Positions 57,732-58,811 of a stretch of DNA of 64,000 bases are shown one piece after another; the first letter of the stretch is position 1, and each line of letters starts with the position of its first letter. The stretch comes from an uncultured Thermodesulfobacteriota bacterium (GTDB lineage Bacteria; Desulfobacterota; GWC2-55-46; JADFVP01). The position numbers and the translations under genes were made by a program. Under the pieces are notes generated by a model. That model searched no databases and was not told where the DNA came from. It was given only the letters and a program-made list of their open reading frames with translations. The stretch is taken from NCBI GenBank assembly GCA_964510775.1, contig CAZEBZ010000003.1, positions 424-64,423 on the forward strand. The letters run 5' to 3'.

Positions 57732-58811
57732 CTACTCCTTATCATCGGCGGCGCACCTGAACCCGAAGTTATTATTCGCCGTATTAGGGTCAAAAAATAT
57801 CCTGTTATAACTCGGTGCGCTTATGCCGCATTTATAATAAGTACAATCATACCACGAACCGCCTCTCAATACCTTAAAGCGCTCGCCGTAGTTCTCATCG
57901 GGGTGCTTGTTGCCCGGGTATGGTTTGAACCAGTTATCCACCCACTCCCAGGCGTTACCGGCCATATCAAAGATACCATAAGGGCTTACGCCATCGGGAA
58001 AGCTGCCTACAGGCATGGTATTGCCAAAACCCAACTGTGGGGTATTGGCCTTTTTTCTGGAAAACCTCTCGCCCCATGGAAAGGCCCTGCCGTCAGTTCC
58101 CCTCGCGGCCTTCTCCCACTGATCTTCACTTGGAAGGCGCTTACCCTCCCATCTGCAAAAAGCATTGGCATCGCTCCAACTCACATAAGTAACAGGGTGG
58201 CCCGCCTTTACCAGCGGCGGCCTTCCATTGCTCCATGTGCGAGGCTGAGCATGACCTGTAGCCCGGACAAAAGCGGCATAACGCTCAACAGTTACCTCGT
58301 ACTTATCTATATAAAAACCCTTTACGTATTTTTTATGCTCGGGCTGAACTTTTGGCCACCAGTCATTAGACCCCTTGGTAAAATACCCTTCAGGTACATA
58401 TACCATGCCCTTCCACTTGTCTGTCTTCTTCGAAAGAATCTTCTTGGCCTGCATACTCTTCTTTGGCACTGGAGCGGCAGCCGAGGCAACGAGTTCAGGC
58501 TCTGGCGTACCGGTGTGCTTCCAGGCGTCCTTACCCTCATAATCGCGGTACTTTTTATTAACAGTAATATATCTCTCGCTTAGACCGGGACCGTGGCATG
58601 AGAAGCATGAGGGCTCCCGCGTATAATCAATAGAGTATTTTTTATCTCCATTATGGCATTTTTCACAGCGAGGCTCACCTGTCTCCAGGTCATAATCACC
58701 TGAAGCGGCAGGAAGTGGTGGAAGGGCGAGACTTCTGCCCGCAAAAGAGAGGACAAAGATAAATATCCAAAGACAGCTCATTAATAATGTATATCTTCTT
58801 CTCATATTCAC
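57732..58811 (-). CDS. Dihaem cytochrome c domain fused to an FGE-sulfatase (SUMF1) domain
   Basis: Signal peptide. The two CxxCH motifs are CEKCH and CFSCH. The C-terminal FGE blocks are [50 protein letters not shown], RGGSW and NNFGFRC. Confidence 0.8.
   Translation of the reverse strand: [359 protein letters not shown]

What the first reader, a model, noticed from the sequence alone, without database searches (positions are those of the whole stretch)
57732..58811. Dihaem cytochrome c - FGE/SUMF1 domain fusion
CEKCH and CFSCH haem-binding motifs lie in the first ~70 mature residues. A complete FGE-sulfatase domain follows (…[23 protein letters not shown]…RGGSW…FGFRC). A covalent haem electron-transfer domain fused to an FGE-fold oxidase suggests the FGE domain is fed or drained by the cytochrome chain encoded around it, rather than acting as a stand-alone sulfatase maturase.
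Basis: seen in the sequence. Interest (0 to 1): 0.55.

Follow-up and report, generated by a model that had tools for sequence, protein, structure and literature searches.

The report
Dihaem cytochrome–FGE fusion in nanowire locus
This gene encodes a real, widely conserved but unstudied periplasmic protein with two covalent haems joined to a sulfatase-maturase-like (FGE) fold, and here it sits inside a gene cluster for an OmcE-type conductive cytochrome "nanowire", so it is a candidate missing part of nanowire assembly or charging, not a sulfatase maturase.

Summary
ORF 57732-58811(-) has a signal peptide, two CxxCH motifs (aa 49-53 and 69-73) and a full Pfam FGE-sulfatase domain (E=2.6e-55). 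Both haem motifs, 20 residues apart, are kept in 120/120 close relatives. In a second subfamily 117/119 keep two motifs once a CX3CH variant is counted.

The FGE domain keeps a Cys-x4-Cys pair that aligns with the Cu(I)-binding cysteines of Streptomyces FGE. It lacks the NxWQGxFP loop of true FGEs. No sulfatase or CxPxR target is nearby.

The gene always travels with a class-I monohaem cytochrome c upstream and, in 12 of 13 informative loci, a haem-less FGE-fold paralogue downstream. In this window and all 7 informative close relatives, the trio lies in an OmcE-type nanowire locus. That locus also holds a c7 lipoprotein, an NHL lipoprotein, an OmcE homologue, a SurA-like PPIase and a predicted 32-strand outer-membrane barrel.

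A loop His next to the Cys pair tracks haem presence (234/241 haem-bearing versus 0/3 haem-less members).

Best reading: a cytochrome-c-wired, redox-active FGE-fold module recruited as a nanowire accessory. Its substrate is unknown. No paper found describes it.

The parts
57732..58811 (-). Dihaem-FGE protein, 359 aa: signal peptide, dihaem mini-domain, variable linker, FGE-fold domain
   Evidence: ORF; Pfam; 120 full-length homologues
58725..58811 (-). Predicted Sec signal peptide (aa 1-29; alternative ATG start at 58805)
   Evidence: Read directly from the sequence; no signal-peptide predictor was available
58653..58667 (-). Haem-binding motif 1, CEKCH (aa 49-53)
   Evidence: C49/C52/H53 invariant in A1 and 120/120 homologues
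58593..58607 (-). Haem-binding motif 2, CFSCH (aa 69-73)
   Evidence: invariant
58422..58535 (-). Poorly conserved, variable-length linker (aa 93-130)
   Evidence: Conservation profile; AF2 pLDDT 42-52
57750..58412 (-). FGE-sulfatase fold domain (aa 134-354)
   Evidence: Pfam E=2.6e-55; PDB FGE hits at E~4e-29; Foldseek top hits CalU17/ToxD/FGE
57903..57905 (-). His303, loop histidine and candidate distal haem ligand
   Evidence: Invariant in the main family; His at position 298 or 303 in 234/241 haem-bearing and 0/3 haem-less members
57828..57845 (-). Cys323-x4-Cys328 pair (CTYYKC) inside the invariant [17 protein letters not shown] stretch
   Evidence: Present in 118/120 and 119/119 homologues; aligns with the Cu-binding Cys pair of S. 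coelicolor FGE 6muj/2q17
58808..59335 (-). Class-I monohaem cytochrome c (CHYCH); its stop codon overlaps or abuts the dihaem-FGE start
   Evidence: Pfam Cytochrome_CBB3/Cytochrom_C; junction; adjacent to or near the dihaem-FGE gene in all 13 loci with upstream flank that carry an FGE partner (divergently placed in L088 and L089), absent only from the stand-alone locus L092
56824..57687 (-). Haem-less paralogous FGE-fold lipoprotein (lipobox AFSGC; GHYTM where the dihaem protein has C-x4-C)
   Evidence: Pfam E=1.5e-54; 45% identical to the target; directly downstream, or one gene away, in all related loci
59332..60363 (-). SurA-like parvulin PPIase, first gene of the putative operon
   Evidence: Pfam Rotamase plus SurA_N; conserved position; promoter-like site 60450-60422
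54658..56670 (-). Predicted 32-strand outer-membrane beta-barrel, last gene of the putative operon
   Evidence: AF2 pLDDT 82.6 with 32 strands; Foldseek hits to LptD/MtrB/usher/SprA barrels; conserved
60611..61618 (-). OmcE-type tetrahaem nanowire subunit homologue
   Evidence: PDB 9yuq E=1.7e-15 and 7tfs E=1.7e-13; four CxxCH motifs
60557..60590 (-). Strong terminator-like hairpin (14-bp stem) after the OmcE-like gene
61795..61822 (-). 12/12 sigma-70 consensus promoter-like site upstream of the OmcE-like gene
61876..62943 (-). NHL beta-propeller lipoprotein (lipobox LISC)
   Evidence: Pfam NHL E=1.8e-34; conserved
63173..63802 (-). Lipoprotein with a c7-type trihaem domain (lipobox LSGC)
   Evidence: Pfam Cytochrome_C7; TIGR04257 68 bits against a cut-off of 40
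53636..54469 (+). HEAT-repeat protein, conserved flank of the locus
51548..53407 (+). Polytopic membrane protein with C-terminal TPR repeats, conserved flank
48532..51273 (-). 913-aa protein with no family match, conserved flank

Best explanation
The gene encodes a Sec-exported periplasmic protein. A ~45-residue peptide carries two c-type haems (CxxCH-15-CxxCH) and is joined by a floppy linker to a non-canonical FGE-fold domain. That domain retains a Cys-x4-Cys pair at the place where true formylglycine-generating enzymes bind Cu(I). The haem peptide has no distal ligands of its own, so I infer that it packs back onto the FGE domain. A loop histidine (His303 here) just before the Cys pair would then ligate a haem, putting haem and Cys pair within electron-transfer distance. 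The protein works as a three-part module: the class-I monohaem cytochrome c encoded immediately upstream exchanges electrons with the two haems, and a haem-less paralogous FGE-fold lipoprotein encoded downstream tethers the complex to the inner face of the outer membrane. The module is a self-contained redox device that also exists as a stand-alone operon in other bacteria. In this lineage it has been recruited into an OmcE-type cytochrome-nanowire locus, in a putative operon SurA-like PPIase -> cytochrome c -> dihaem-FGE -> FGE lipoprotein -> 32-strand outer-membrane barrel, next to the separately and strongly expressed filament-subunit gene. Most likely it performs a cytochrome-driven redox step at the Cys-pair (copper or dithiol/disulfide) centre, and that step serves export, anchoring or protection of the nanowire at the barrel. 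Shown: sequence features, conservation, gene linkage, fold. Inferred: haem attachment, haem docking on the FGE domain, electron flow, lipoprotein tethering. Unknown: metal content and substrate.
For: Real and conserved fusion. Two haem motifs occur in 120/120 close homologues and the Cys pair in 118/120. In a second subfamily the Cys pair occurs in 119/119 and two haem motifs in 117/119 once CX3CH is counted. The Cys pair aligns residue for residue with the Cu-binding pair of S. coelicolor FGE, whose copper-bound structure is 6muj. The stretch around it, H303..[17 protein letters not shown], is the most invariant part of a family that is only ~55% identical overall.

Haem docking. The dihaem peptide holds no conserved His or Met beyond the two CxxCH histidines. 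A His at position 298 or 303 is present in 234/241 haem-bearing members, and in 0/3 haem-less members and none of the lipoprotein paralogues. AF2 cannot place either the haem peptide or aa 306-339 (pLDDT 34-64), although the rest of the FGE fold is confident. This fits a cofactor-dependent interface.

Module. A cytochrome c and a haem-less FGE partner accompany the gene in every locus with enough flank except L092. The start codon overlaps or abuts the cytochrome c stop codon.

Nanowire context. The OmcE homologue is identified. The same gene order occurs in L001, L002, L003, L004, L005, L006, L085, L086 and L087. The barrel is modelled.

Stand-alone operons (L008, L093, L094, L090) show the module has an intrinsic function independent of a nanowire.
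Against: There is no direct evidence for copper, for catalysis or for any substrate. The domain lacks the NxWQGxFP loop present in human FGE and pFGE, with an insertion of the same size in S. coelicolor FGE. All NCBIfam equivalogs score far below their cut-offs. Against human FGE, HMMER aligns the Cys pair to C341/C346 rather than C336/C341, so active-site equivalence rests on the bacterial alignment and on gap parsimony. One divergent member (L010) keeps the haems but not the Cys pair, and a few members keep the Cys pair without haems, so the two features are separable. The Cys pair could simply be a structural disulfide. The AF2 model is poor exactly where it matters, and no multimer or cofactor modelling was possible. 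Operon structure is inferred from spacing and consensus scans only.
Confidence: 0.5

Rival explanations
1. Structural collar plus electron relay. The two FGE-fold proteins have no chemistry of their own. Like PorK/GldK in the type 9 secretion system, they form a periplasmic scaffold under the giant barrel. The three haems (one on cytochrome c, two on this protein) merely hand electrons from periplasmic c7 cytochromes to the base of the OmcE-type filament. The Cys pair is a structural disulfide.
For: The FGE fold is used structurally by PorK, which lacks the active-site cysteines (PMC12365241), and PorK/GldK structures appear among the PDB hits. The partner is a lipoprotein and lies next to a 32-strand barrel and a PPIase. 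The Desulfuromonadia omcE clusters have two multihaem cytochromes and two beta-propeller lipoproteins (preprint 10.1101/2025.10.22.684050). Here only one of each is present, so the FGE pair could be their replacement.
Against: The same module exists as a stand-alone operon with no barrel or filament gene nearby (L008, L093, L094, L090), so a nanowire-specific scaffold cannot be its general role. PorK's ring-forming insert (about 160 aa) is absent, and the GldK model scores 77-89 bits against a cut-off of 350. The near-absolute invariance of [17 protein letters not shown] is more than a structural disulfide usually needs.
Confidence: 0.25
2. Periplasmic copper handling. The Cys pair binds Cu(I) as in FGE. 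The haems remove or supply the electron, giving a cuprous oxidase or chaperone that uses cytochrome c instead of O2. This would protect the heavy c-type cytochrome maturation load of a nanowire producer from copper.
For: The Cys pair aligns with the Cu(I) site of FGE, and FGE structures with Cu, Ag and Cd are among the closest PDB matches. The family is found in both anaerobes and aerobes such as Nitrospinota. One distant member lies beside a COX1-like gene and a haem o synthase. That copper damages cytochrome c maturation is my own recollection of the literature and was not checked here.
Against: No copper-resistance or chaperone genes were seen in any of the loci examined. The link to a haem-copper oxidase occurs in only one locus. 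Nothing explains the obligate haem-less FGE partner.
Confidence: 0.1
3. A self-sufficient genuine formylglycine-generating enzyme. It converts Cys to formylglycine in a sulfatase, with the two haems supplying the two reducing equivalents that FGE needs from an external reductant.
For: It has the FGE fold and a Cys pair at the catalytic position. Two haems could deliver two electrons.
Against: There is no sulfatase among the 38 window ORFs scanned against Pfam and none annotated in the related loci. No CxPxR motif occurs in any cluster protein. The NxWQGxFP loop of FGE/pFGE is deleted. The sequence after the second Cys (GISAPSYNR) differs from the FGE xRYRxAAR motif.
Confidence: 0.04
4. The CxxCH motifs are not haem sites, or the haem peptide is a pro-peptide removed after export, leaving an ordinary FGE-fold protein.
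For: Pfam cytochrome models score below threshold. A long unconserved linker (aa 93-130) could be a protease site. OmcZ is an example of a nanowire cytochrome that is proteolytically processed (PMC9473688).
Against: The motifs and their 20-residue spacing are conserved down to about 40% identity, including a CX3CH variant. Residues around them are conserved (DYD, GEP, YSIDYTR, GPGLS). The loop His co-varies with the haems. No protease gene lies in the locus.
Confidence: 0.03

Closest known systems
Copper-dependent formylglycine-generating enzyme (human SUMF1; S. coelicolor and T. curvata FGE; PDB 1y1e, 6muj, 6s07)
   Same: Same fold: PDB phmmer E~4e-29 and Foldseek probability 1.0. The Ca-site-type motif DMAGNAWEW is present. 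A Cys-x4-Cys pair aligns with the Cu(I)-binding cysteines of the bacterial enzyme.
   Different: It carries an N-terminal dihaem peptide and is periplasmic. It lacks the 10-13-residue NxWQGxFP loop. The sequence after the second Cys differs. No sulfatase or CxPxR substrate is present. It has an obligate haem-less paralogue and a cytochrome c partner.
PorK/GldK, FGE-fold lipoproteins of the type 9 secretion system (PDB 9mzu, 9ots; PMC12365241, PMC12635249)
   Same: Both use an FGE fold in the periplasm, anchored as a lipoprotein (here through the partner protein) and associated with a very large outer-membrane barrel. A cysteine in GldK is functionally essential, forming disulfides to outer-membrane proteins.
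   Different: PorK lacks both FGE active-site cysteines, whereas this protein keeps them. There is no PorK-type ~160-aa insert and no PorN/PorLM genes. The phylum differs. PorK has no haems. The GldK model is far below its cut-off.
omcE nanowire gene cluster of Desulfuromonadia (Geobacter, Desulfuromonas; PDB 7tfs, 9yuq; preprint 10.1101/2025.10.22.684050)
   Same: Both have an OmcE-type tetrahaem subunit, a beta-propeller lipoprotein, a multihaem periplasmic cytochrome, a large beta-barrel, and nearby TPR proteins (in relatives such as L086 also a GT2 glycosyltransferase).
   Different: The described minimal cluster has two multihaem cytochromes and two beta-propeller lipoproteins, and the preprint text holds no occurrence of 'formylglycine', 'FGE', 'sulfatase' or 'isomerase'. 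This cluster has one of each, plus the PPIase, monohaem cytochrome c, dihaem-FGE and FGE lipoprotein.
Other non-FGE members of the FGE-sulfatase superfamily (EgtB/OvoA/OvsA/SenA sulfoxide synthases, PvdO, CalU17, ToxD; NirV from my own knowledge)
   Same: They share the fold, and the middle of the domain aligns without gaps to OvsA. PvdO is likewise periplasmic and, according to its NCBIfam name, redox-linked.
   Different: Those enzymes use a DinB-domain iron site or have no known cofactor. None has covalent haem or the conserved Cys-x4-Cys. All NCBIfam equivalog scores are 3-9 times below their cut-offs.
Mini multihaem modules of the c7/c3 type
   Same: The CxxCH spacing is short, there is little secondary structure, and Pfam gives weak hits to Cytochrom_c3_2 and Cytochrome_C7.
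   Different: There are only two haems on ~45 residues with no in-domain distal His. The module cannot be an autonomous domain and appears to depend on the FGE domain for ligands.

Membership tests
Formylglycine-generating enzyme (bona fide, Cu-dependent) | FGE/C-type-lectin-like fold (Pfam PF03781) | tested here: met
   188 bits against a cut-off of 23.3; PDB and Foldseek hits
Formylglycine-generating enzyme (bona fide, Cu-dependent) | Two active-site cysteines, Cys-x4-Cys, that bind Cu(I) | tested here: inconclusive
   A Cys-x4-Cys pair is present and aligns with the pair of S. coelicolor FGE. Against human FGE, HMMER shifts it to C341/C346. Metal binding was not testable.
Formylglycine-generating enzyme (bona fide, Cu-dependent) | NxWQGxFP loop, conserved in FGE and pFGE (its hallmark status is from my own knowledge; its presence in human FGE and pFGE is seen in the alignments) | tested here: not met
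   The query has a 10-13-residue deletion exactly there relative to SUMF1 and SUMF2, and S. coelicolor FGE spans 12 more residues over the same stretch (coordinates only)
Formylglycine-generating enzyme (bona fide, Cu-dependent) | A sulfatase substrate carrying C/S-x-P-x-R | tested here: not met
   No sulfatase among the 38 window ORFs scanned against Pfam; no CxPxR in the 11 cluster proteins; the rest of the genome is unseen
c-type cytochrome | CxxCH haem-attachment motifs conserved in orthologues | tested here: met
   Two motifs in 120/120 homologues and, with the CX3CH variant, in 117/119
c-type cytochrome | Export to the periplasm and a maturation system in the genome | tested here: met
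   Signal-peptide-like N-terminus; CcsA-type assembly gene at 2199-3023
c-type cytochrome | Covalently bound haem with defined axial ligands | not testable with these tools
   Only correlative evidence: loop His at 298/303 in 234/241 haem-bearing versus 0/3 haem-less members. Pfam cytochrome models score below their cut-offs.
OmcE-type nanowire locus | Tetrahaem subunit homologous to OmcE | tested here: met
   60611-61618 matches 9yuq at E=1.7e-15 and 7tfs at E=1.7e-13, with four CxxCH motifs
OmcE-type nanowire locus | Large outer-membrane beta-barrel, beta-propeller lipoprotein(s) and multihaem cytochrome(s) in the cluster (as described in preprint 10.1101/2025.10.22.684050) | tested here: met
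   32-strand barrel model; NHL lipoprotein and c7 trihaem lipoprotein. Only one of each is present rather than two.
OmcE-type nanowire locus | Actual filament formation | not testable with these tools
   Needs cryo-EM or expression data; the organism is known only as a MAG
PorK/GldK (T9SS ring lipoprotein) | Lipoprotein with an FGE fold interrupted by a ring-forming insert, lacking the FGE cysteines, partnered with PorN | tested here: not met
   The target is not a lipoprotein and keeps the cysteines. The partner is a lipoprotein but has only a ~20-aa insert. TIGR03525 scores 77 and 89 bits against a cut-off of 350. No PorN-like gene is present.

The most novel reading that the evidence does not exclude
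The dihaem-FGE / FGE-lipoprotein / cytochrome c trio is a new class of cytochrome-c-driven redox enzyme built on the FGE fold. Electrons move between haem and a Cu(I) or dithiol centre. In these Thermodesulfobacteriota it is a dedicated factor of a previously undescribed nanowire export machine (SurA-like chaperone, FGE-fold collar and a 32-strand barrel), and it is needed to assemble, anchor or electrically connect OmcE-type filaments at the outer membrane.
Probability: 0.3. Interest if true: 0.85.

Novelty: new variant of a known kind. Interest (0 to 1): 0.6.

Why it matters
How cytochrome nanowires are exported, assembled and connected to periplasmic electron carriers is an open question. 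The published omcE cluster analysis lists a barrel, propeller lipoproteins and cytochromes but assigns them no roles. This locus adds a conserved and testable set of candidates: a SurA-like chaperone, a monohaem cytochrome c, a haem-wired FGE-fold protein with an intact Cys pair, its lipoprotein paralogue and a 32-strand barrel.

Independently of nanowires, a covalent-haem FGE fold would be a new cofactor combination for a superfamily so far known for Cu/O2 chemistry, non-haem iron chemistry or pure scaffolding. The physiological reductant of FGE-type copper centres is unknown, and a natural fusion to an electron-transfer domain would be a model for it.

The family is large: at least about 240 clusters at 90% identity were seen here, spanning Thermodesulfobacteriota, Nitrospirota and Nitrospinota. 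Databases annotate it only as 'formylglycine-generating enzyme family protein' or, misleadingly, as 'nonheme iron enzyme' or 'hercynylcysteine S-oxide synthase'.

Tried and rejected
1. Literature. Seven full-text searches were run, combining formylglycine, FGE-sulfatase, cytochrome, nanowire, NHL, isomerase and OmcE. None found a paper linking an FGE domain to cytochromes or nanowires. The Wang 2022 OmcE paper and the Baquero 2023 paper are not held.

2. Species-genome scan. The scan was swamped by the generic DMAGNxWEW pattern, so only about 6 of 80 loci were family members. Taxonomic breadth is therefore poorly sampled.

3. Representative search. The search was dominated by multi-FGE-domain giants. 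It still yielded the distant subfamilies (P0134, P0162, P0183, P0197, P0206, P0222).

4. AF2 model of the target. It is confident only for the FGE core. The haem peptide and aa 306-339 are unusable, so I could not measure haem-to-Cys distances or check the active-site superposition. The tool returns no coordinates.

5. A PorG-like disulfide partner. The barrel's N-terminal Cys (GWC) is replaced by Ser or Ala, or is missing, in about a third of homologues, so this idea was dropped.

6. Link to aerobic respiration. One distant locus has a COX1-like gene plus haem o synthase, and two have UbiA (one of them also a UbiC-like gene). Three further loci of the same subfamilies show unrelated neighbours, so the link is not consistent.

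7. A substrate inside the cluster. There is no CxPxR, and the OmcE-like protein has no Cys outside its CxxCH motifs.

8. The afdb50 fold library was unavailable, so the barrel could not be matched to Geobacter's cluster barrel.

9. Rfam found nothing in the window.
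Full report
OBSERVATION

The ORF listing returns a single 359-aa ORF at exactly 57732..58811 on the minus strand. It has a GTG start whose first base follows the last sense codon of the upstream gene, so GTG overlaps that gene's TGA stop. An in-frame ATG lies two codons later. CEKCH is aa 49-53 (58653-58667) and CFSCH is aa 69-73 (58593-58607).

Pfam FGE-sulfatase covers aa 134-354, almost the whole profile, at E=2.6e-55. The N-terminus (RRR, hydrophobic core, SLA|LPP) reads as a Sec signal peptide. The window also carries a CcsA-type cytochrome c assembly gene at 2199-3023. The Pfam cytochrome models (c3_2, c7) hit only below their cut-offs.

Haem binding itself remains an inference from sequence.

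ARE THE HAEM MOTIFS REAL?

The word-indexed protein search returned 120 full-length relatives at 52-100% identity. All come from metagenomes or MAGs labelled Thermodesulfobacteriota, Deltaproteobacteria or Nitrospirae. Every one carries two CxxCH motifs, 20 residues apart in 119 and 19 in one. 118 of 120 carry GGSW[YF]DCxxY[KR]C.

A second search, seeded from a 41%-identical relative (L008), returned 119 more sequences, including Nitrospinota. All 119 have the Cys-x4-Cys. Sixty have two CxxCH. Fifty-seven have CX3CH (for example CQSTCH) followed about 20 residues later by CxxCH.

The haem region is tiny, about 45 residues: DYDPVTGEPxCxxCHTPDRRYSIDYTRDxTCxECHGPGLS. In the main family it contains no conserved His or Met other than the two proximal histidines. 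A poorly conserved linker of variable length follows at aa 93-130.

WHAT KIND OF FGE DOMAIN IS IT?

The closest solved structures by sequence are human FGE, its paralogue pFGE and bacterial FGEs (E about 1e-28 to 4e-29). Next come ToxD, CalU17, OvsA, EgtB, PvdO and PorK. Foldseek on the AF2 model agrees.

Two features separate it from true FGEs. First, relative to human FGE and pFGE there is a 10-13-residue deletion that removes the NxWQGxFP loop, and S. coelicolor FGE spans 12 more residues over the same stretch. The same region aligns without gaps to the sulfoxide/selenoxide synthase OvsA. Second, the sequence after the second cysteine (GISAPSYNR) is unlike the FGE xRYRxAAR motif.

A Cys-x4-Cys pair nevertheless survives. 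With S. coelicolor FGE (2q17; copper-bound structure 6muj) HMMER aligns Cys323 and Cys328 exactly onto the two active-site cysteines with a one-residue gap. With human FGE, which has a third cysteine, it chooses C341/C346 at the price of three gaps. I regard the bacterial alignment as the better one, but this point is not settled.

All NCBIfam equivalog models (SenA, EgtB, GldK, PvdO, OvoA) score 3-9-fold below their cut-offs. None of the 38 window ORFs scanned against Pfam is a sulfatase. None of the eleven cluster proteins contains CxPxR, and the OmcE-like protein has no cysteine outside its CxxCH motifs. The protein is therefore a member of the FGE-fold superfamily but not a bona fide FGE.

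COUPLING OF HAEM AND FGE DOMAIN

Within a family that is only ~55% identical overall, the invariant residues concentrate in W151-W152-P153-K154 and in H303-x-D-E-N-x-G ... G-G-S-W-x-D-C-T-x-Y-x-C-G-x-S-x-P. AF2, run with a 91-sequence alignment, models the FGE core confidently. It gives pLDDT 53-64 for the haem peptide and 34-51 for aa 306-339, the most conserved stretch and one that is well ordered in FGE crystal structures. This is what one expects if that stretch folds around a cofactor the predictor cannot see.

In a joint alignment of 244 family members, a histidine sits at position 303 (main family, PYPGNxH) or at position 298 (second subfamily, PHPGxxY/V). Of 241 haem-bearing members, 234 have one or both. 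None of three haem-less members has either, nor do the haem-less lipoprotein paralogues. The second subfamily additionally has a conserved His right after haem motif 2 (GxAGHPYK).

I infer that the haem peptide docks on the FGE domain, that the loop histidine is a distal haem ligand, and that at least one haem lies next to the Cys pair. This is correlative evidence. The features are also separable at the margins: L010 has haems but GHYTM in place of the Cys pair, and L007, P0195 and P0201 have the Cys pair but no haem.

THE MODULE

Immediately upstream is a class-I monohaem cytochrome c at 58808-59335 (Pfam Cytochrome_CBB3/Cytochrom_C). Downstream, at 56824-57687, is a haem-less FGE-fold protein that is 45% identical to the target. 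It has a lipobox (AFSGC, then Lys) and G-H-Y-T-M where the target has C-x4-C.

A cytochrome c and at least one haem-less FGE paralogue accompany the dihaem-FGE gene in the window and in L001, L002, L003, L004, L005, L085, L086, L087, L008, L010, L088, L089, L090, L093 and L094. The one exception among loci with enough flank is the Nitrospinota-type locus L092, where the gene stands alone.

In the second subfamily the module is a self-contained operon, cytochrome c - dihaem-FGE - FGE - FGE, set among unrelated neighbours: LptD, FecR-like, trehalose genes and, once, a COX1-like gene plus haem o synthase. The module therefore has an intrinsic function that does not require a nanowire.

THE LOCUS IN THIS WINDOW

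The tetrahaem protein at 60611-61618 is homologous to the OmcE nanowire subunits of Geobacter sulfurreducens (7tfs, E=1.7e-13) and Desulfuromonas soudanensis (9yuq, E=1.7e-15). It is bracketed by a 12/12 sigma-70 consensus promoter-like site and a 14-bp-stem terminator, as expected for a highly expressed major subunit.

Upstream lie an NHL beta-propeller lipoprotein and a lipoprotein with a c7-type trihaem domain. Downstream, behind a weaker promoter-like site, come a SurA-like parvulin PPIase, the cytochrome c, the dihaem-FGE, the FGE lipoprotein and a 670-aa protein with no family match.

AF2 models that 670-aa protein, from 16 homologues, as an all-beta protein of 32 strands (pLDDT 82.6). 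Its best PDB matches are LptD, MtrB, BtuB, pilus ushers and the T9SS translocon, all at TM only 0.2-0.3. I read this as a giant outer-membrane barrel of a size class without a solved representative.

HEAT and TPR proteins and a conserved 913-aa unknown protein flank the locus. The same order recurs in every close relative with enough flank, often with a fused MFS/spermidine-synthase gene inserted after the dihaem-FGE gene.

The only description of omcE clusters I could find is a 2025 preprint. It states that minimal clusters in Desulfuromonadia encode two multihaem cytochromes, two beta-propeller lipoproteins, OmcE and a large beta-barrel, and its text contains no occurrence of FGE, formylglycine, sulfatase or isomerase. 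The present locus has one multihaem cytochrome and one propeller, plus the PPIase and the cytochrome c / dihaem-FGE / FGE-lipoprotein trio. It is thus a variant in which the trio may have replaced the second cytochrome and propeller. That last point is my inference.

MECHANISM

My preferred reading (confidence about 0.5) is a cytochrome-c-wired redox module. Electrons pass between the monohaem cytochrome c, the two haems and the Cys-pair centre, which is either Cu(I), as in FGE, or a dithiol/disulfide. The complex is held at the inner face of the outer membrane by the lipoprotein paralogue. In this lineage it serves the nanowire machine at the barrel.

The main rival (about 0.25) is a purely structural PorK-like collar with the haems acting as an electron relay into the filament base. 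PorK and GldK show that the FGE fold can be a scaffold under a giant barrel, and that a cysteine there can be functionally essential through disulfide bonding. PorK, however, has lost the FGE cysteines, whereas this family guards them. The stand-alone operons also argue for intrinsic chemistry.

The remaining rivals are less likely. Copper detoxification or chaperoning stands at about 0.1. A self-sufficient sulfatase maturase stands at about 0.04 and is contradicted by the missing loop and the missing substrates. A non-haem protein or cleaved pro-peptide stands at about 0.03.

NOVELTY AND VERDICT

The fold, c-type haem motifs and OmcE loci are all known. The combination is not described in any paper I could search: covalent haems wired to an FGE-fold Cys-pair site, an obligate haem-less paralogue, and residence in a nanowire locus with a 32-strand barrel. 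Databases label these proteins generically, and sometimes wrongly as 'nonheme iron enzyme' or 'hercynylcysteine S-oxide synthase'.

I class it as a new variant of a known kind, with interest 0.6. It bears on the open question of nanowire export and charging. The function remains inferential, and all carriers are uncultured.

Noticed in passing
window 60611-61618 (-), with 61795-61822 and 60557-60590: An OmcE-type tetrahaem nanowire subunit homologue (PDB 9yuq and 7tfs) in an uncultured Thermodesulfobacteriota MAG. It is flanked by a perfect 12/12 sigma-70 consensus promoter-like site and a 14-bp-stem terminator.
   Followed up: partly
window 54658-56670 (-): A 670-aa protein with no Pfam or NCBIfam match is predicted by AF2 (pLDDT 82.6) to be a 32-strand beta-barrel. 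That is larger than the LptD and MtrB barrels that head its Foldseek hit list (26 strands each, from my own knowledge), and it has only low-TM matches in the PDB. Only 16 homologues were found.
   Followed up: partly
window 48532-51273 (-): A 913-aa protein without a signal peptide and with no family hit in Pfam or NCBIfam. It is conserved beside the locus in L001, L004, L006 and L085.
   Followed up: no
L001 10986-12611; also L002, L003, L085, L086, L087: A fused MFS/spermidine-synthase gene (NF037959) sits between the dihaem-FGE gene and the FGE lipoprotein gene in most relatives. It is absent from this window and from L004.
   Followed up: no
P0343-P0411, L092: A Nitrospinota-rich subfamily of dihaem-FGE proteins uses a CX3CH motif (for example CQSTCH) as its first haem site. 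In the one locus examined (L092) the gene stands alone, without cytochrome c or FGE partner genes.
   Followed up: partly
L008 685-3131; L088 1001-1879; L089 2041-3517: Some distant dihaem-FGE operons lie next to a COX1-like gene plus haem o synthase (L008) or a 4-hydroxybenzoate octaprenyltransferase (L088, L089), the latter joined by a chorismate-lyase-like gene in L089. This hints at a link to aerobic respiration that other loci do not confirm.
   Followed up: partly
window 56824-57687 (-) and paralogues: The haem-less FGE lipoprotein carries a conserved G-H-Y-[TSA]-[MLI] motif exactly where the dihaem protein has Cys-x4-Cys. In L010 the dihaem protein itself carries GHYTM. This may be a second ligand or metal site.
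   Followed up: no
window 859-3712 (-): Glutamyl-tRNA reductase, a CcsA-type cytochrome c assembly protein and a sirohaem-synthase-like NAD-binding protein are clustered. This is haem supply and maturation for a cytochrome-rich organism.
   Followed up: no
window 27393-28859 (+) and 27575-28846 (-): A response regulator with a proline-rich, cornifin-like C-terminal half is overlapped almost completely by a 423-aa antisense ORF, which is probably a compositional artefact.
   Followed up: no
window 23999-27210 (+): A 616-aa radical-SAM plus methyltransferase fusion is followed by a 456-aa ORF with no family match.
   Followed up: no
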